Shown here: piece after piece, positions 133-23,413 of the stretch
How positions within the stretch are numbered: the stretch's first letter is position 1
How the letters are laid out: each line of letters starts with the position of its first letter
IMG/VR virus record: IMGVR_UViG_2740892229_000010
Strand: one strand, 5' to 3'
DNA from: a virus
Lineage: Duplodnaviria; Heunggongvirae; Uroviricota; Caudoviricetes
Length of the DNA stretch: 23,413 nt
Program-made: the position numbers and the translations under genes
Notes under the pieces: generated by a model
What the model saw: only the letters and a program-made list of their open reading frames with translations
Database searches by the model: none
What the model was told of the DNA's origin: nothing

Positions 133-600
133 AAAAGGCCTTATATGTTTGTAGAGACTTATTTTTCACAGACAGCAATGATGCCTGTCAATATATTATC
201 AATATGCGGATTGTTTCAGTTACAGATGCTTTATTAAGGAAAAAAACAGCCAGCACTGACTTTCGGTGGAGAGGTGCTGGCTCAGAAGGATAGTTGGATT
301 TCACATGATACTTATGCCTGGCGGTATATTTTCTGACAGACAGTGACGGGTGTTGTCAAGATATTGTGTCATTTATAACCTGAATCAGGGGAGGCCGGAA
401 TGTTATCTGGNNNNNNNNNNTCCACTCTGAAGGACGCTGGCTAAAACGGGTAGATGTACTTCACATGATACTTATATTTGGCAGTACATTTTCTGACAGA
501 CAGTGACGGATGTTGTCAAGATATTGTGTCATTTATAACCTGAATCAGGGGTTGGTCGGAATGTTATCTGGCATTTTTAGCAGAGCCTGAATGCCATAAT
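97..600. repeat. Diverged repeat units of about 150 bp, each with a stem-loop and a conserved downstream block
   Basis: Unit A (about 97-240) and unit B (about 241-410) are adjacent with no N run between them and share a hairpin plus a block like 'ttctgacagacagtgacgg.tgttgtcaagatattgtgtcatttataacc'. Unit C (421-600) follows the N run at 411-420 and is near-identical to B, so it is probably the allelic copy rather than a third tandem unit. Confidence 0.5.
238..283 (-). terminator. Putative intrinsic terminator, minus-strand orientation (second repeat unit)
   Basis: 9-bp stem agccagcac/gtgctggct at 249-283, preceded on the + strand by an A-run at 238-245. The stem differs from unit A by compensatory changes that keep pairing. 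Confidence 0.3.
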
Positions 601-2539: not shown

Positions 2540-3172
2540 ATGAACCGTGTTCTGTGCGTGGTTATCATTGTCCTGCTGGTGGCCTGTGGTGCGCTTAGTC
2601 TGGGGCTGAATCATTACCGTGATCACGCCATCATCTACAAAGAGCAGCGCGATAAAAAAGCCAGTGAGCTGGAGCTGGCGAACGCGACAATTACTGATAT
2701 GCAGATACGCCAGCGTGATGTCGCTGCACTTGATGCCAGATACTCGAGGGAATTAGCCGATGCGAGAGCTGAAAATGAAACTNNNNNNNNNNTCATCACC
2801 TACAAAGCGCAGCGCGATAAAAAAGCCAGAGAGCTGGAGCTGGCAAACGCAACCATTACTGATATGCAGGTGCGCCAGCGCGATGTTGCTGCGCTCGATG
2901 CAAAATACTCGAGGGAATTAGCCGATGCGAGAGCTGAAAATGAAACTCTGCGTGCTGATGTTGCCGCTGGTCGTAAGCGCCTGCGGATCAACGCCACCTG
3001 CTCCGGTACCGTGCGTGAAGCCACCGGCACCTCCGGCGTGGATAATGCAACCGGCCCCCGACTGGCAGACACCGCTGAACGGGATTATTTCATCCTCAGA
3101 GAACGGCTGATGGCAATGCAGAAGCAACTGGAAGGAGCACAGGAATATATCCGTACCCAGTGTATACCGTGA
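2540..3172 (+). CDS. Rz: Rz inner-membrane spanin (i-spanin), composite across an N run
   Basis: From ATG 2540: [41 protein letters not shown]…[35 protein letters not shown], matching lambda Rz as recalled. The N run at 2783-2792 is followed by an allelic repeat of the preceding 50 codons, so the true protein is about 150 aa, not the 210 implied by the coordinates. Confidence 0.8.
2940..3110 (+). CDS. Rz1: Rz1 outer-membrane lipoprotein spanin (o-spanin), embedded in Rz in the +1 frame
   Basis: [56 protein letters not shown]: lipobox LVVSAC and a proline-rich mature part matching lambda Rz1. Lies wholly inside Rz in a different frame. An alternative ATG at 2925 is in frame. Confidence 0.75.
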
Positions 3173-3635
3173 TGTTTTGTTATGAAGGTGTTACTGGTAA
3201 CGTTAAGGTAATTTAACAAAGAGTCAGTTCCGGACTTTATAGTGTGCTCAGTTCATGGCCAAAAACGATTTCTGTGATAAATATTTTGAATATTATTTAC
3301 AGGTAAATGGAGTGGGGCGCATGGATAGAAATATTACAATAGAGTATGAAGTATATGCCCGTATTGTATGGGCAGAGAAGGCAAAAACATGGTAATTCCG
3401 TGTGTTGCCATGATACCTGATTGGCAGAATTGTTGTTTGGTTTTGAGTATATAGTCAGCGTCTTTTGTTCGGTAATTGCTCTTTCAATTAAAATGCCAGA
3501 TATGATTTGCTTTTCTTTGTTGTTTAGTTTTTTTGTATATTATTTTTATTGTTTTTATATAATTAGTTTTTTATTGTTGTCTTATTAAGGACGGTAAATT
3601 CAGGATGGCAGTCTGTAGATAAACGGAGGTTACTT

Positions 3636-3950
3636 ATGCTACATGATCACCTGGCAGAATGTCTGGAGAAAAAAGGACTGTACCGGAGAGCAGCTGAACG
3701 ATGGGCAAAAGTGATGGTACAGCTAAGTGATGACCAGAAAAGAAAAGTGGCGGCACAGAAACGAGCAGAGTGTTTGCGTAAGGCGCGCCGGACTCCGGTT
3801 TCACCGGTGAACCTGACCGAAATAAAACAAGCGGTCAACAGACTACATTCTGAGTTGGGAATGGGATTTGAAGAGCGGCGGGTATTCCGACGATATAAAG
3901 GGACAGGAGAACAGAATACGTCCGGAAACGCGCGGTCAAAAAAATGCTAA
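3636..3950 (+). CDS. PerC-family transcriptional regulator (Pch-like)
   Basis: 104 aa with strong SD (ggagg) 7 nt upstream. The N-terminal motif KGLYRRAAERWAKVM resembles the PerC/Pch signature (GxYRRAAxRWLxVM, from memory). Preceded by about 450 bp of strongly AT-rich DNA (3181-3635). Confidence 0.6.
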   Translation: MLHDHLAECLEKKGLYRRAAERWAKVMVQLSDDQKRKVAAQKRAECLRKARRTPVSPVNLTEIKQAVNRLHSELGMGFEERRVFRRYKGTGEQNTSGNARSKKC

Positions 3951-3985
3951 AAAATATCTGAGAGCGTTATTGCCTGTTACCATAA

Positions 3986-4014
3986 GAAAAAGCGACTTTA
4001 GTGGTCGCTTTTTG
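3986..4014. terminator. Bidirectional intrinsic terminator between convergent genes
   Basis: Stem gcgac/gtcgc with an A-run on the 5' side and a T-run on the 3' side (aaaaagcgac-tttagtg-gtcgcttttt), between the PerC-like gene (+) and the YlcI-like gene (-). Confidence 0.5.
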
Positions 4015-4031
4015 TGTCATATATAAGTCGT

Positions 4032-4256
4032 TTAAGTAAACCTGTCTGAACAGGTTCTCTGGTCGTGTTTGTCTTTGTTGGGTACAAATTGAGAATATTT
4101 TTCATTAATTAATCTTCTTCTGCAGGCTTCAATAACCCACGCTGAAAAATTTTCTGAACCTTTCTGGTCAAGAGCGATGTTAATTTGTTCAATCATCTGG
4201 TTTGGAAATCGGATGTTGCGGGTTGTTGTTCTGCGGGGCCGGTTTTTCGATGACAT
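4032..4256 (-). CDS. Small YlcI/YnfO-like prophage protein (DUF3950-like)
   Basis: 74 aa, MSSKNRPRRTTTRNIRFPNQMIEQINIALDQKGSENFSAWVIEACRRRL…; resembles the small proteins found next to the terminase remnant in E. coli cryptic prophages, recalled from memory with moderate certainty. Confidence 0.45.
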   Translation of the reverse strand: MSSKNRPRRTTTRNIRFPNQMIEQINIALDQKGSENFSAWVIEACRRRLINEKYSQFVPNKDKHDQRTCSDRFT

Positions 4257-4279
4257 TTTCTTTCCTCTGNNNNNNNNNN

Positions 4280-4384
4280 ACCTGAACCTTTCAGGTCAAG
4301 AGCGATGTTAATTTGTTCAATTATCTGGTTTGGAAATCGGATGTTGCGGGTTGTTGTTCTGCGGGTTCTGTTCTTTGATGACAT
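4280..4384 (-). CDS. Allelic second copy of the YlcI-like gene 5' part, truncated by an N run
   Basis: MSSKNRTRRTTTRNIRFPNQIIEQINIALDLKGSG… starting at 4384 and ending at the N run 4270-4279; differs from the 4032-4256 copy by a few substitutions. Confidence 0.4.
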
Positions 4385-4591
4385 AATGTTGCCCCGTATT
4401 CAGTGTTGCTGATTTGTATTATCTGAAGTTGCTTTTACGCTAATTTGATGCAGATCAATTAATACGATACCTGCGTAATAATTGATTATTTCTCGTGGTT
4501 TGATGGCGTACACACATGTCGTGATAAACCTCATGTAGATGATAATTATTATCATTTTCGTGGGTCCTTTCCGGCGATCCGACAGGTTACG

Positions 4592-4603
4592 GGGCGGCGA
4601 CCT
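4592..4603. other. cosN, the 12-nt cohesive-end sequence GGGCGGCGACCT
   Basis: gacaggttacg|GGGCGGCGACCT|cgcgggttttcgctatttatgaaaattttccgg matches the lambda right-end/left-end junction as I recall it, including the first 33 nt to the right of cosN. Confidence 0.8.
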
Positions 4604-4629
4604 CGCGGGTTTTCGCTATTTATGAAAAT

Positions 4630-4745
4630 TTTCCGGGATCCATGTCCGGTTTCTCTTCAAGTTAACTATATGAAAAATATAAAAACAGGTCTTCTGTGAA
4701 CCGGACATGAACAAAAAACAGACATGTAAACCGGACATGACCGGT
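4630..4745 (+). promoter_or_regulatory. cosB-like terminase-binding region: three CCGGACATG repeats and an AT-rich IHF-like spacer
   Basis: Inverted copy catgtccgg at 4641-4649, direct copies ccggacatg at 4701-4709 and 4731-4739 (plus gacatg at 4721-4726), with an AT-rich stretch at 4655-4690 between the first and second. The layout parallels lambda R3-I1-R2-R1, but the repeat sequence is not lambda's. Confidence 0.55.
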
Positions 4746-7386: not shown

Positions 7387-9368
7387 AACGAACGCCTGTC
7401 CTGATTGATGTGAACGGCGTTCCGCTTCGTGAGAGTCTCAGCTACAACGGGGGCGGTGCAGGATTTGGCGGGCAAATGGCGGAGTGGTTGCCACCGGCGC
7501 AGAGTGCCGATGCAGCCCTGCTGCCTGCGTTGCGTCTGGGGAATGCCCGGGCAGATGATCTGGTGCGCAATAACGGGATAGCGGCCAATGCGGTGGCCCT
7601 GCATAAGGATCATATTGTCGGGCATATGTTTCTGATCAGCTACCGTCCGAACTGGCGCTGGCTGGGGATGCGGGAGACTGCGGCAAAAAGTTTTGTCGAT
7701 GAGGTGGAGGCGGCCTGGTCGGAATACGCCGAAGGGATGTTTGGCGAGATCGACGTGGAAGAGAAACGCACGTTTACGGAATTTATTCGTGAAGGTGTGG
7801 GCGTTCATGCGTTTAACGGCGAAATCTTTGTGCAGCCGGTCTGGGATACGGAGAGCACGCAACTGTTTCGTACGCGTTTTAAAGCCGTGAGTCCGAAACG
7901 GGTGGACACGCCAGGACACGGTATGGGGAACCGTTTTCTGCGGGCCGGGGTGGAGGTCGATCGATATGGCCGTGCCGTTGCGTACCATATCTGTGAGGAT
8001 GATTTTCCGTTCTCTGGTAGTGGACGATGGGAACGGATCCCGCGTGAACTACCCACCGGGCGTCCGGCCATGCTGCATATTTTCGAGCCGGTGGAGGACG
8101 GGCAGACCCGTNNNNNNNNNNTGTGGAGGTCGATCGATATGGTCGTGCCGTTGCGTACCATATCTGTGAGGATGATTTTCCGTTCTCCGGGAGTGGACGA
8201 TGGGAACGGATCCCGCGTGAACTTCCCACCGGGCGTCCGGCCATGCTGCATATTTTCGAGCCGGTGGAGGACGGGCAGACCCGTGGGGCTAATCAGTTTT
8301 ACAGCGTCATGGAACGGCTGAAGATGCTGGATTCCCTGCAGGCAACACAGCTTCAGTCGGCCATTGTGAAAGCCATGTATGCAGCGACGATTGAAAGTGA
8401 ACTTGATACCGAAAAGGCCTTTGAATATATCGCCGGTGCGCCGCAGGGGCAGAAGGATAATCCGCTTATTAATATTCTGGATAAGTTCTCCACCTGGTAT
8501 GACACGAATAGCGTGACGCTGGGTGGTGTCAAAATTCCGCACCTTTTCCCCGGTGATGATCTGAAACTTCAGACCGCGCAGGATTCAGACAATGGATTTT
8601 CGGCGCTTGAACAGGCGCTGCTGCGGTATATCGCCNNNNNNNNNNGCAGACTGCGCAGGATTCAGACAATGGATTTTCGGCGCTTGAACAGGCGCTGCTG
8701 CGGTATATCGCCGCCGGTCTTGGCGTTTCCTACGAACAGTTGTCCCGTGATTACTCGAAGGTCAGTTATTCAAGTGCCCGCGCATCCGCCAATGAGTCGT
8801 GGCGCTATTTTATGGGGCGGCGAAAATTTATTGCGTCCCGGCTGGCCACGCAGATGTTTTCCTGCTGGCTGGAAGAGGCANNNNNNNNNNGGATTACTCG
8901 AAGGTCAGTTATTCAAGTGCCCGCGCCTCCGCCAATGAGTCGTGGCGCTATTTTATGGGACGACGAAAATTTATTGCGTCCCGGCTGGCCACGCAGATGT
9001 TTTCCTGCTGGCTGGAAGAGGCACTTCTTCGGGGGATTATTCGTCCGCCACGGGCACGTTTTGATTTTTATCAGGCGCGATCAGCCTGGTCACGGGCTGA
9101 GTGGATTGGAGCCGGAAGAATGGCCATTGACGGGCTCAAGGAGGTTCAGGAATCAGTGATGCGCATTGAGGCCGGACTGAGCACGTATGAGAAAGAGCTG
9201 GCGCTGATGGGTGAGGATTATCAGGACATTTTCCGCCAGCAGGTCAGGGAATCTGCAGAGCGGGAAAAAGCCGGACTCTCACGTCCGGTGTGGATAGCGC
9301 AGGCGTATCAGCAGAAGATAGCGGAGAGTCGCAGGCCGGAAGAGGAGACAACACCACGTGAGACGTAA
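7383..9368 (+). CDS. B: Portal protein (gpB-like), composite across three N runs
   Basis: Collinear with lambda gpB from MKRTPVLIDVNGVP… through GANQFYSVMERLKMLDSLQATQLQSAIVKAMYAATIESELDT and SARASANESWRYFMGRRKFIASR to the C-terminus. N runs at 8112-8121, 8636-8645 and 8881-8890 are each followed by an allelic repeat of the preceding segment, so the coordinates overstate the gene length. Confidence 0.9.
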
Positions 9369-22600: not shown

Positions 22601-23413
22601 GCCGGGGAGAGGGAAGAGGAGCAGGCAAGAGAGGCTCTGCTTGCCCTTGAAGCTGAGCTCAGGACGCTGGAAAAACACAGCGGTGCGAATGAGAAAATCA
22701 GTCGGCAGCGCCGTGATTTATGGAAGGCGGAAAGTCAGTATGCGGTCCTGAAAGAGGCTGCCACGAAACGACAGTTATCTGAGCAGGAAAAATCCCTGCT
22801 GGCGCATAAAGACGAGACGCTGGAGTACAAACGCCAGCTGGCTGAGCTGGGCGACAAGGTTGAATACCAGAAACGCCTGAATGAGCTGGCACAGCAGGCG
22901 GTGCGGTTTGAAGAGCAGCAGAGCTCGAAGCAGGCCGCCATCAGCGCAAAAGCCCGCGGTCTCACTGACCGTCAGGCGCAGCGGGNNNNNNNNNNGCAGT
23001 TATCCTGGCAGGAAAAATCCCTGCTGGCCCATGAGAAAGAGACGCTGGAGTACAAACGCCAGCTGGCTGACCTGGGCGACAAGGTTGAACACCAGAAACG
23101 CCTGAATGAGCTGGCACAGCAGGCGGTGCGGTTTGAAGAGCAGCAGAGCGCGAAGCAGGCCGCCATCAGCGCAAAAGCCCGCGGTCTCACTGACCGTCAG
23201 GCGCAGCGGGAGTCTGAAGCGCAGCGTCTTCGGGACGTGTACGGTGATAATCCGCAGGCGCTGGCCCGGGTCACTGGGGCACTGAAACAGACATGGGCGG
23301 ATGAAGACATGCTGCGCGGTGACTGGCTGGCCGGGCTGAAGTCCGGCTGGGGGGAGTGGGCGGAAAGTGCGACGGACAGTTTTTCGCAGGTTAAAAGTGC
23401 TGCCACGCAGACC
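19640..23413 (+). CDS. H: Tail tape measure protein H, partial at the window end, composite across two N runs
   Basis: ATG 19640 (MSQPVGDLVIDLSLDAVRFDEQMSRVRRHFSGLETDARKTAGVVEQ…AAMRTLPAQFTDIATQLAGGQNPWLILLQQGGQVKDSFGGMIPMFRGLAGAITLPMVG…) is collinear with lambda gpH. After N 21355-21364 a second allele restarts near H residue 70 with a different N-proximal domain and rejoins the common sequence around 22620; N 22986-22995 adds a third overlapping piece. No stop codon before the window end. Confidence 0.85.
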   Translation, partial: MSQPVGDLVIDLSLDAVRFDEQMSRVRRHFSGLETDARKTAGVVEQNLSRQALAAQKAGISVGQYKAAMRTLPAQFTDIATQLAGGQNPWLILLQQGGQVKDSFGGMIPMFRGLAGAITLPMVGVTSLAVATGALAYAWYQGDSTLSAFNKTLVLSGNQSGLTADRMLTLSRAGQAAGLTFNQASESLAALVNAGVRGGEQFDAINQSVARFASASGVEVDKVAEAFGKLTTDPTSGLMAMARQFRNVTAEQIAYVAQLQRSGDEAGALQAANDIATKGFDEQTRRLKENMGTLETWADKTGKAFKSMWDAILDIGRPESSADMLASAQKAFDEADKKWQWYQSRSQRRGKTASFRANLQGAWNDRENARLGLAAATLQSDMEKAGELAARDRAERDASQLKYTGEAQKAYERLLTPLEKYTARQEELNKALKDGKILQADYNTLMAAAKKDYESTLKKPKSSGVKVSAGERQEDQAHAALLALETELRTLEKHSGANEKISQQRRDLWKAENQYAVLKEAATKRQLSEQEKSLLTHEKETLEYKRQLAELGDKVEHQKRLNELAQQAARFXXXXAMRTLPAQFTDIVTQLAGGQNPFLIMLQQGGQISDSFGGPLSLLTLLKEELLGIRDASESSEESLSDTANALAENARNAGELGRFMSVARVAAGGGVAVLAALAAAAWQAEQADRALLRSLTLTGGAAATTTAELWKMAGVISDEAGGGIRQAAENLARLAESGKYTAGQLRIMGETSQRWLQTVGDDAGKVEKAFEGIAADPVKALASLNQQYNFLSVSQLRHIDELERTKGKQAAVTEAMSLFADVMNARLEQLDKAATPVEKIWDDVKTWTSDAWAWIGDHTLGALSLITDVVAGTVEQVKLLLVQGDLALAEFIQSAWETTKNVPGVGALFGELAEENRVFIEKTKRDELALRKSIAERDARIRQGEMGYINRSRATGVSKGPGQQEAVSRLAEELTGKKHTSPKTRSAGEREEEQAREALLALEAELRTLEKHSGANEKISRQRRDLWKAESQYAVLKEAATKRQLSEQEKSLLAHKDETLEYKRQLAELGDKVEYQKRLNELAQQAVRFEEQQSSKQAAISAKARGLTDRQAQRXXXXQLSWQEKSLLAHEKETLEYKRQLADLGDKVEHQKRLNELAQQAVRFEEQQSAKQAAISAKARGLTDRQAQRESEAQRLRDVYGDNPQALARVTGALKQTWADEDMLRGDWLAGLKSGWGEWAESATDSFSQVKSAATQT

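What the first reader, a model, noticed from the sequence alone, without database searches (positions are those of the whole stretch)
3181..4030. PerC-family regulator gene in an AT-rich islet between the lysis cassette and cos
The 104-aa product has the PerC/Pch-like N-terminal motif and follows about 450 bp of very AT-rich DNA, the kind of region usually silenced by H-NS. Prophage-encoded PerC homologues in pathogenic E. coli activate chromosomal virulence loci (the LEE via Ler). Its presence suggests this prophage carries a regulator that acts in trans on the host, expressed independently of the late operon; the bidirectional terminator at 3986-4014 insulates it from the convergent YlcI-like gene.
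Basis: partly seen in the sequence, partly recalled or inferred. Interest (0 to 1): 0.5.

Follow-up and report, generated by a model that had tools for sequence, protein, structure and literature searches.

The report
Known EHEC virulence regulator gene pchB

Summary
ORF 3636-3950 (+) encodes 104 aa that match Pfam PerC (PF06069) end to end (E 5.4e-44, 148.8 bits against a cut-off of 22.6). Protein and coding DNA are 100% identical to PchB (ECs_2182) of E. coli O157:H7 Sakai, and 103/104 to PchA and PchC. The 463 bp upstream (33% GC; 19.8% in 3480-3600, the lowest in the window) are 99.6% identical to Sakai's pchB upstream region. A hairpin at 3987-4013 with an A-run and a T-run, a convergent YlcI/DUF3950 gene (4032-4256, -) and a lambda cos site (4592-4603) are all present.

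Published work shows that group 1 Pch proteins activate the LEE1/ler promoter by displacing H-NS. In 5,426 complete E. coli genomes, 671 of the 673 that carry this gene also carry ler.

Three caveats apply:
- The window is a scaffold of short contigs joined by 10-N gaps, and the pch contig (2793-4269) probably comes from a different prophage than the cos/Nu1 contig beside it.
- Independence from late transcription is not shown. The gene lies downstream of Rz on the same strand, and published data show SOS induction raises group 1 pch.
- H-NS silencing of its own promoter was not tested.

Verdict: already known, low interest.

The parts
2793..3172 (+). 3' part of the Rz-type spanin ('lysis protein') gene, with the embedded Rz1 lipoprotein ORF (2925..3110). 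This is the last late lysis gene before pch. The contig starts here after the N gap at 2783-2792.
   Evidence: ORFs. The matching stretch is annotated 'lysis protein' or 'endopeptidase' in O103:H2 12009 and Sakai. The gap and the 90%-identical 155-bp overlap are.
3173..3635 (+). AT-rich pch upstream region, holding the promoter and leader, of the pchB type.
   Evidence: GC is 33.0%, with 19.8% in 3480-3600, the lowest in the window. It is 99.6% identical to the Sakai pchB upstream region, 100% to O103:H2 12009, and only 90.8% to the pchA upstream region. Differences between alleles cluster at 3480-3590. The transcription start was not mapped here.
3255..3395 (+). 46-aa ORF inside the upstream region, probably not a gene.
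   Evidence: It matches phrog_2157 over its full length (E 2.3e-37) and is intact in all 6 loci compared. However, codon differences are 10 nonsynonymous to 1 synonymous (summed over pairwise comparisons with the window). It is not annotated in any RefSeq record inspected.
3625..3629 (+). Shine-Dalgarno sequence GGAGG, 6 nt upstream of the ATG.
   Evidence: Read directly from the sequence.
3636..3950 (+). pch gene, pchB allele: a 104-aa PerC-family regulator.
   Evidence: PF06069 at E 5.4e-44. The protein is 100% identical to Sakai PchB and 103/104 to PchA (L6V) and PchC (V58M). The coding DNA is identical to Sakai pchB, with C/G/C at diagnostic positions 16, 172 and 183 (positions from PMC5931665).
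3987..4013 (.). Hairpin flanked by an A5 run and a T5 run, resembling a bidirectional intrinsic terminator between pch and ylcI.
   Evidence: Folds at -14.7 (+) and -11.9 (-) kcal/mol, z about -3.8. The core alone gives -8.9 and -8.0. It is invariant in 5 loci, so no covariation test is possible. The consensus scan did not list it. Function was not tested.
4032..4256 (-). Convergent YlcI/YnfO (DUF3950) gene, 74 aa.
   Evidence: NF041551 at 35.8 bits against a cut-off of 30. PF13132 at E 4.6e-19. Annotated as YlcI/YnfO family protein in RefSeq records.
4270..4279 (.). 10-N scaffold gap that ends the pch contig. The next contig restarts inside a second, 86%-identical ylcI copy.
   Evidence: The second partial ylcI ORF (4193..4384, -) is.
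4592..4603 (+). Lambda-type cohesive-end sequence GGGCGGCGACCT (cos), on the neighbouring contig.
   Evidence: Single exact match; expected by chance 0.01.

Best explanation
This is a copy of pchB, one of the group 1 'PerC homologue' genes (pchA/B/C) carried as cargo by lambdoid prophages of LEE-positive E. coli. It sits in the slot between the last lysis gene (Rz/Rz1) and the DNA-packaging genes.

What is shown here: the gene, its PerC-family membership, its identity to Sakai pchB including the regulatory region, its position, and its near-perfect co-occurrence with ler.

What is taken from published experiments on the identical or near-identical protein:
- Pch binds AT-rich DNA at the LEE1 promoter, displaces or remodels the H-NS/StpA/Hha silencing complex and so switches on ler. 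Ler then activates the rest of the LEE and non-LEE effector genes.
- PchB gave the strongest activation of a ler::lacZ fusion among the five Sakai homologues.
- In the resting lysogen, pchA and pchB are activated by LrhA. For pchA, control by Lrp/butyrate, and translational activation by the sRNA DicF, which opens a leader structure that blocks the ribosome, are also described.

What is inferred: the AT-rich upstream DNA is itself a target of nucleoid-protein silencing. Because the gene lies on the late strand with no terminator before it, Q-antiterminated late transcription also reads through it during induction. The hairpin at 3987-4013 ends the gene's own transcript and that of ylcI in the uninduced state.
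For: - Family: PF06069 at 148.8 bits, full length.
- Identity: protein and coding DNA identical to Sakai PchB ECs_2182, one residue from PchA and PchC. Upstream 463 bp are 99.6% identical to the pchB upstream region of prophage Sp11.
- Position: the same gene order (Rz - PerC-family regulator - YlcI on the opposite strand - terminase) is annotated in IAL7255, O103:H2 12009, O26:H11 11368 and O157:H7 MB41-1. Sakai Sp11 and Sp14 show Rz - pch - terminase without an annotated ylcI, though the ylcI DNA is present.
- Distribution: the gene is in 673 of 5,426 complete E. coli genomes (median 3 copies) and ler is in 697. The union is 699, so 671 genomes carry both, against about 86 expected if the two were independent.
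- Literature: H-NS displacement at LEE1 (PMC4764244). PchB strongest on ler::lacZ and the allele-defining positions (PMC5931665). Groups 1-3 and SOS induction of group 1 (PMC6265319). LrhA, Lrp and butyrate inputs (PMC4456613). DicF and the pchA leader (PMC7873438).
Against: - Nothing contradicts the identification.
- The host genome of this window cannot be inspected, so the presence of a LEE in this strain rests on the collection statistic.
- Neither the promoter nor the terminator was demonstrated. The sigma-70 consensus scan found no promoter in 3100-4700.
- The predicted leader folds do not give a single clear structure that hides the ribosome-binding site.
- The DicF result was published for pchA. 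The pchB-type leader differs from the pchA-type leader at two positions beside the Shine-Dalgarno sequence.
Confidence: 0.95

Rival explanations
1. The gene is a PerC homologue of the non-LEE-activating kind (group 2 pchD, group 3 pchE, or K-12 yfdN-like). It would then regulate something else, such as curli or flagella.
For: PerC-family membership alone does not separate the groups. The literature shows that PchD and PchE have little effect on ler (PMC5931665, PMC6265319).
Against: The protein and coding DNA are 100% identical to Sakai PchB and carry the pchB combination at the three allele-defining positions. All but one of the 688 matching records are at 99% identity or more, so this is a tight group 1 cluster.
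Confidence: 0.01
2. The pch contig does not belong to the lambda-like cos/Nu1 prophage shown around it. It comes from another prophage of the same genome, with an HNH-endonuclease/terminase packaging module, and was placed here by reference-guided scaffolding. 'This prophage carries the regulator' would then be an assembly artefact, although the gene itself is real.
For: There are 18 gaps of exactly 10 N, and the sequences on either side of the two gaps around pch overlap at only 90% and 86% identity. The 23.4-kb window maps onto only about 16.8 kb of complete genomes. The contig's right end is identical to O103:H2 12009, O26:H11 11368 and O157:H7 MB41-1, where HNH endonuclease and a different terminase follow. 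Loci that continue into cos/Nu1 (Sakai Sp11 and Sp14, IAL7255) diverge from the window over the last ~30 bases.
Against: Lambda-like cos/Nu1 prophages do carry group 1 pch in exactly this slot. Recombinants between modules are common among lambdoid phages. Only three genomes were inspected for the right-hand neighbour.
Confidence: 0.55
3. The gene is simply part of the phage late transcript, with no expression of its own in the lysogen. It would then matter only during induction.
For: It lies on the same strand as Rz and directly downstream of it. No terminator-like site and no consensus promoter were found between them. Group 1 pch mRNA rises on SOS induction (PMC5931665, PMC6265319).
Against: Published genetics show that pchA/B/C are needed for LEE expression in uninduced cultures and respond to LrhA, Lrp/butyrate and DicF (PMC4456613, PMC7873438, PMC4764244). 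The upstream region exists as two distinct conserved alleles, as expected of regulatory DNA.
Confidence: 0.05

Closest known systems
PchB (ECs_2182) of E. coli O157:H7 Sakai, prophage Sp11
   Same: Protein and coding DNA are 100% identical. The 463 bp upstream are 99.6% identical. The flanks are the same: Rz upstream and a convergent ylcI sequence downstream.
   Different: The last ~30 bases of the contig, at the 5' end of ylcI, follow the O103/O26 type, which leads to an HNH endonuclease, rather than the Sp11 type, which leads to cos/Nu1.
PchA (ECs_1091, Sp4) and PchC (ECs_2737, Sp14)
   Same: Both are 103/104 identical, belong to the same family and sit in the same prophage slot. Like PchB, they are published LEE1 activators (PMC5931665).
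   Different: They differ by L6V (PchA) and V58M (PchC). The pchA upstream region is only 90.8% identical over 463 bp. Both share an upstream type with a diverged ~110-bp T-rich block at 3480-3590. That fits the published differential regulation of pchA and pchB (Honda 2009, cited in PMC4456613).
PerC of typical EPEC (pEAF plasmid, perABC operon)
   Same: It is the founding member of Pfam PF06069 and activates LEE1/ler (PMC4764244, PMC4456613).
   Different: It is plasmid-borne in an operon with perA/perB rather than prophage cargo. It is dispensable for LEE expression in EPEC under many conditions, whereas pch is essential in EHEC (PMC4764244). E2348/69 has ler but no group 1 pch match (one place only).
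bor and other morons of phage lambda between Rz and cos
   Same: Host-affecting cargo occupies the same slot at the end of the late lysis region. This comparison rests on established lambda genetics and on my own knowledge.
   Different: bor encodes a lipoprotein and lies on the opposite strand. pch encodes a regulator and lies on the late strand.

Membership tests
PerC family (Pfam PF06069) | Significant full-length match to the family profile | tested here: met
   148.8 bits against a gathering score of 22.6, E 5.4e-44, residues 1-89 on model positions 1-89 of 90.
PerC family (Pfam PF06069) | Small protein of about 90-130 aa with the conserved N-terminal region | tested here: met
   The protein has 104 aa. 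PHROG families annotated as transcriptional activators also match the N-terminal ~55 residues.
Group 1 Pch (PchA/B/C of EHEC) | Near-identity to Sakai pchA/B/C, with alleles told apart by coding positions 16, 172 and 183 (PMC5931665) | tested here: met
   The window has C/G/C at these positions, as in Sakai pchB, and there are no differences over the 315 nt.
Group 1 Pch (PchA/B/C of EHEC) | Carried on a lambdoid prophage between the lysis genes and the packaging genes | tested here: met
   The Rz 3' end, pch and ylcI are continuous in the contig. The same order occurs in six complete-genome loci. Which prophage of the source genome carries it remains uncertain.
Group 1 Pch (PchA/B/C of EHEC) | Present in LEE-positive strains | tested here: met
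   At collection level only: 671 of 673 pch-positive complete genomes also carry ler. The source genome itself could not be examined.
Group 1 Pch (PchA/B/C of EHEC) | Activates the LEE1/ler promoter by relieving H-NS silencing | not testable with these tools
   Shown experimentally for PchA (PMC4764244) and for PchA, PchB and PchC on ler::lacZ (PMC5931665). It applies here through sequence identity.
Rho-independent (intrinsic) terminator, bidirectional | G+C-containing hairpin followed by a U-run on each strand | tested here: inconclusive
   The hairpin at 3987-4013 folds well on both strands and has T5 and A5 flanks. The G+C core is only 5-6 bp, the consensus scan did not report it, and the sequence is invariant, so covariation cannot be assessed.
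H-NS-silenced horizontally acquired DNA | H-NS occupancy of the AT-rich upstream region | not tested
   Only composition was measured (19.8-33% GC). No ChIP data for this site were retrieved.

The most novel reading that the evidence does not exclude
Group 1 pch genes have two sharply different upstream alleles. The pchB type is seen here and in O103:H2 12009. The pchA/C type differs mainly in a ~110-bp T-rich block at 3480-3590 and at two bases beside the ribosome-binding site. These alleles could wire otherwise identical regulators to different signals: different nucleoid-protein, LrhA or sRNA inputs. The pchB-type copy might also travel specifically with an HNH-terminase prophage lineage rather than with lambda-like cos phages. 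Part of this is already implied by the published 'differential regulation of PchA and PchB'.
Probability: 0.1. Interest if true: 0.25.

Novelty: already known. Interest (0 to 1): 0.08.

Why it matters
pch genes are the link between prophage content and expression of the LEE type III secretion system in EHEC and atypical EPEC. Finding one therefore marks the source strain, with very high probability, as an attaching-and-effacing pathotype. For discovery purposes it adds nothing new, because the gene, its product, its target and much of its regulation have been described since 2004. The practical value of this check lies in two points. The first-stage call was accurate. The window is a mosaic scaffold, so gene linkage read from it should not be trusted across the N gaps.

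Tried and rejected
- NCBIfam has no model for this protein. It gave only sub-threshold noise, including a 13.6-bit match to the ANR family against a cut-off of 32. I did not pursue this.
- The consensus promoter/terminator scan of 3100-4700 found no promoter and missed the hairpin. The hairpin was confirmed by folding instead. An exact TATAAT at 3558-3563 has no acceptable -35 partner and is absent from the pchA/C-type allele, so I do not claim it as the promoter.
- Leader folds of 3540-3720 gave several alternative structures and no clear occlusion of the ribosome-binding site.
- I tried to locate dicF in the Sakai loci, to test pairing with this leader. A sequence recalled from memory gave no match, and Rfam found no DicF in L004. 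The DicF analysis was dropped. The primary DicF paper (PMC6628830) is not held.
- Rfam found no known RNA family anywhere in the window.
- The PDB has no sequence relative of the protein.
- The 46-aa ORF (3255-3395) was considered as a possible co-transcribed small gene. I rejected it as unsupported, given 10 nonsynonymous to 1 synonymous codon differences.
- The phage genome collection holds only two unannotated fragments that match this region, so it gave no useful context.

Full report
**The observation**

ORF 3636..3950 on the + strand starts with ATG and encodes 104 aa. A GGAGG lies six bases before the start. Against Pfam the product matches PerC (PF06069) over positions 1-89 of the 90-position model, at 148.8 bits (gathering score 22.6) and E 5.4e-44. 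PHROGs gives full-length matches to phrog_994 and phrog_33603, and shorter matches to families labelled transcriptional activator. NCBIfam has no model for it.

The 463 bp between the Rz stop codon and the ATG have 33.0% GC, and 3480-3600 has 19.8%. The window average is 53.2%, and the 200-bp minimum of the whole window (27.5%) lies here.

Downstream, 3987-4013 forms a hairpin flanked by an A5 run and a T5 run.
- It folds at -14.7 kcal/mol on the + strand and -11.9 on the - strand. The core alone gives -8.9 and -8.0.
- None of 200 shuffles folded as well.
- The consensus scan did not list it.

The convergent gene at 4032..4256 (-) is a YlcI/YnfO DUF3950 protein. The lambda cohesive-end sequence GGGCGGCGACCT occurs once, at 4592-4603, ahead of a Nu1-like gene.

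**What the gene is**

The 1.1 kb around the gene is 99.9-100% identical to many complete genomes of O103:H2, O26:H11, O45:H2 and O157:H7, where the ORF is annotated as a PerC family transcriptional regulator. I fetched the three named pch genes of O157:H7 Sakai.
- The window's product is identical to PchB (ECs_2182).
- It differs from PchA by L6V and from PchC by V58M.
- The 315-nt coding sequence is identical to Sakai pchB. It has C, G and C at positions 16, 172 and 183, the three positions a published study uses to tell the group 1 alleles apart (PMC5931665).
- The upstream 463 bp are 99.6% identical to the pchB upstream region in prophage Sp11, but only 90.8% to the pchA upstream region in Sp4.

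An alignment of six loci shows two upstream types. The pchB type occurs in the window, Sakai Sp11 and O103:H2 12009. The pchA/C type differs mostly in a T-rich block corresponding to 3480-3590, and at two bases next to the Shine-Dalgarno sequence.

**How it works**

The mechanism comes from published experiments on the identical or one-residue-different proteins.
- Five PerC homologues exist in O157:H7. Only group 1 (pchA, pchB, pchC) is needed for full ler and espA expression and for adherence (PMC6265319, citing Iyoda and Watanabe 2004).
- On a ler::lacZ fusion in K-12, all three group 1 proteins activated at least four-fold, and PchB was the strongest (PMC5931665).
- Pch activates the LEE1 promoter only when it is repressed by H-NS/StpA/Hha. 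Pch lowers H-NS occupancy in vivo and blocks H-NS binding to LEE1 DNA in vitro, so it acts as an anti-silencer. It also boosts Ler-dependent activation of other LEE promoters (PMC4764244).
- Upstream inputs include LrhA acting on pchA and pchB, and Lrp/butyrate/LeuO acting on pchA (PMC4456613). The sRNA DicF opens a pchA leader structure that blocks the ribosome (PMC7873438).

I could not reproduce the leader occlusion convincingly by folding. I also could not locate dicF to test pairing.

**The host question**

Only the window is available, so I tested co-occurrence in 5,426 complete E. coli genomes.
- The pch coding sequence is found in 673 genomes, with a median of 3 copies. All but one matching record are at 99% identity or more.
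- ler is found in 697 genomes.
- A query made of both sequences joined together matches 699 genomes, so 671 genomes carry both. About 86 would be expected if the two were independent.

So 99.7% of pch carriers have ler. The typical EPEC strain E2348/69 is an example of a ler-positive strain without group 1 pch. Two of the genomes that best match the whole window, AMSHJX01 and Z1323HEC0355, also appear in the ler list.

First, the window is not continuous sequence. It has 18 runs of 10 N. Several gaps are flanked by imperfectly duplicated sequence, including the two around pch (155 bp at 90% and 118 bp at 86%). The 23.4 kb collapse onto about 16.8 kb of any complete genome. It is therefore a reference-ordered string of short contigs from several similar prophages.

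The pch contig is 2793-4269. Its right end is identical to O103:H2 12009, O26:H11 11368 and O157:H7 MB41-1, where the next genes are an HNH endonuclease and a different small and large terminase. Loci that do continue into cos/Nu1 (Sakai Sp11 and Sp14, IAL7255) diverge from the window over the last ~30 bases. The gene probably belongs to a different prophage of the source strain than the cos/Nu1 contig next to it. The slot itself, after Rz and before the packaging genes, is the same in both prophage types.

Second, independence from the late operon is not established. The gene is on the late strand directly after Rz, and no terminator-like site was found in between. Published transcriptomics show that group 1 pch rises on SOS/prophage induction (PMC5931665, PMC6265319). 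The best reading is dual expression: a regulated promoter of its own in the lysogen, plus late read-through on induction.

Third, H-NS silencing of the gene's own upstream DNA is plausible from composition but was not tested.

**Other checks**

- The 46-aa ORF at 3255..3395 matches a PHROG family over its full length and is intact in all six loci. Its codon differences are 10 nonsynonymous to 1 synonymous (summed over pairwise comparisons with the window), and no RefSeq record inspected annotates it. I treat it as conserved non-coding DNA.
- No Rfam family matches anywhere in the window.
- No PDB entry is related to the protein by sequence.
- The phage genome collection holds only two unannotated fragments that match this region.

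**Verdict**

The object is an exact copy of a gene characterised two decades ago, so it is already known and of low interest.

Noticed in passing
window 411-420, 941-950, 1801-1810, 2783-2792, 4270-4279, 8112-8121 and 12 further sites up to 22986-22995: There are 18 runs of exactly 10 N. At nine of them the sequence on one side repeats the other side at 75-97% identity. The 23.4-kb window maps onto only about 16.8 kb of complete genomes. The window is a mosaic scaffold of contigs from several similar lambdoid prophages, so linkage across gaps is unreliable.
   Followed up: yes
window 3255-3395 (+): This 46-aa ORF matches phrog_2157 over its full length (E 2.3e-37) and is intact in six loci. 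It shows 10 nonsynonymous to 1 synonymous codon differences (summed over pairwise comparisons with the window) and is unannotated in RefSeq. It is probably not a gene, which illustrates that a PHROG hit can reflect conserved DNA only.
   Followed up: yes
window 3480-3590; L002, L003, L004, L006: Group 1 pch genes have two distinct upstream alleles, the pchB type and the pchA/C type. They differ mainly in a ~110-bp T-rich block, while the flanking DNA is nearly identical.
   Followed up: partly
window 4240-4269; L001 7149-8367, L007 3649-4868, L008 3649-4866: The right end of the pch contig is of the type followed, in O103:H2, O26:H11 and one O157:H7 genome, by an HNH endonuclease and a non-lambda terminase. 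The window instead shows lambda-type cos/Nu1 after the gap.
   Followed up: partly
E. coli genomes plasmid records NZ_CP144931.1 (94.8 kb) and NZ_AP042674.1 (65.7 kb): Fifteen matches to the pch coding sequence lie on plasmid records rather than chromosomes. These may be phage-plasmids or unplaced prophage contigs.
   Followed up: no
phages collection: The pch region is in 673 complete E. coli genomes, yet only two unannotated fragments among 50,697 deposited phage records match it. Prophages that carry pch seem to be almost unrepresented among sequenced free phages.
   Followed up: no
window 4040-4056 (inside the 3' end of ylcI): A perfect inverted repeat ACCTGT-CTGA-ACAGGT lies within the last codons of the YlcI-like gene and is conserved in all five loci aligned.
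   Followed up: no
window 3636-3950 product, residues 7-47: There is a sub-threshold resemblance to the ANR (AraC negative regulator) family NF033650, at 13.6 bits against a cut-off of 32 and E 0.046. This is another family of small proteins. The match is not significant.
   Followed up: no
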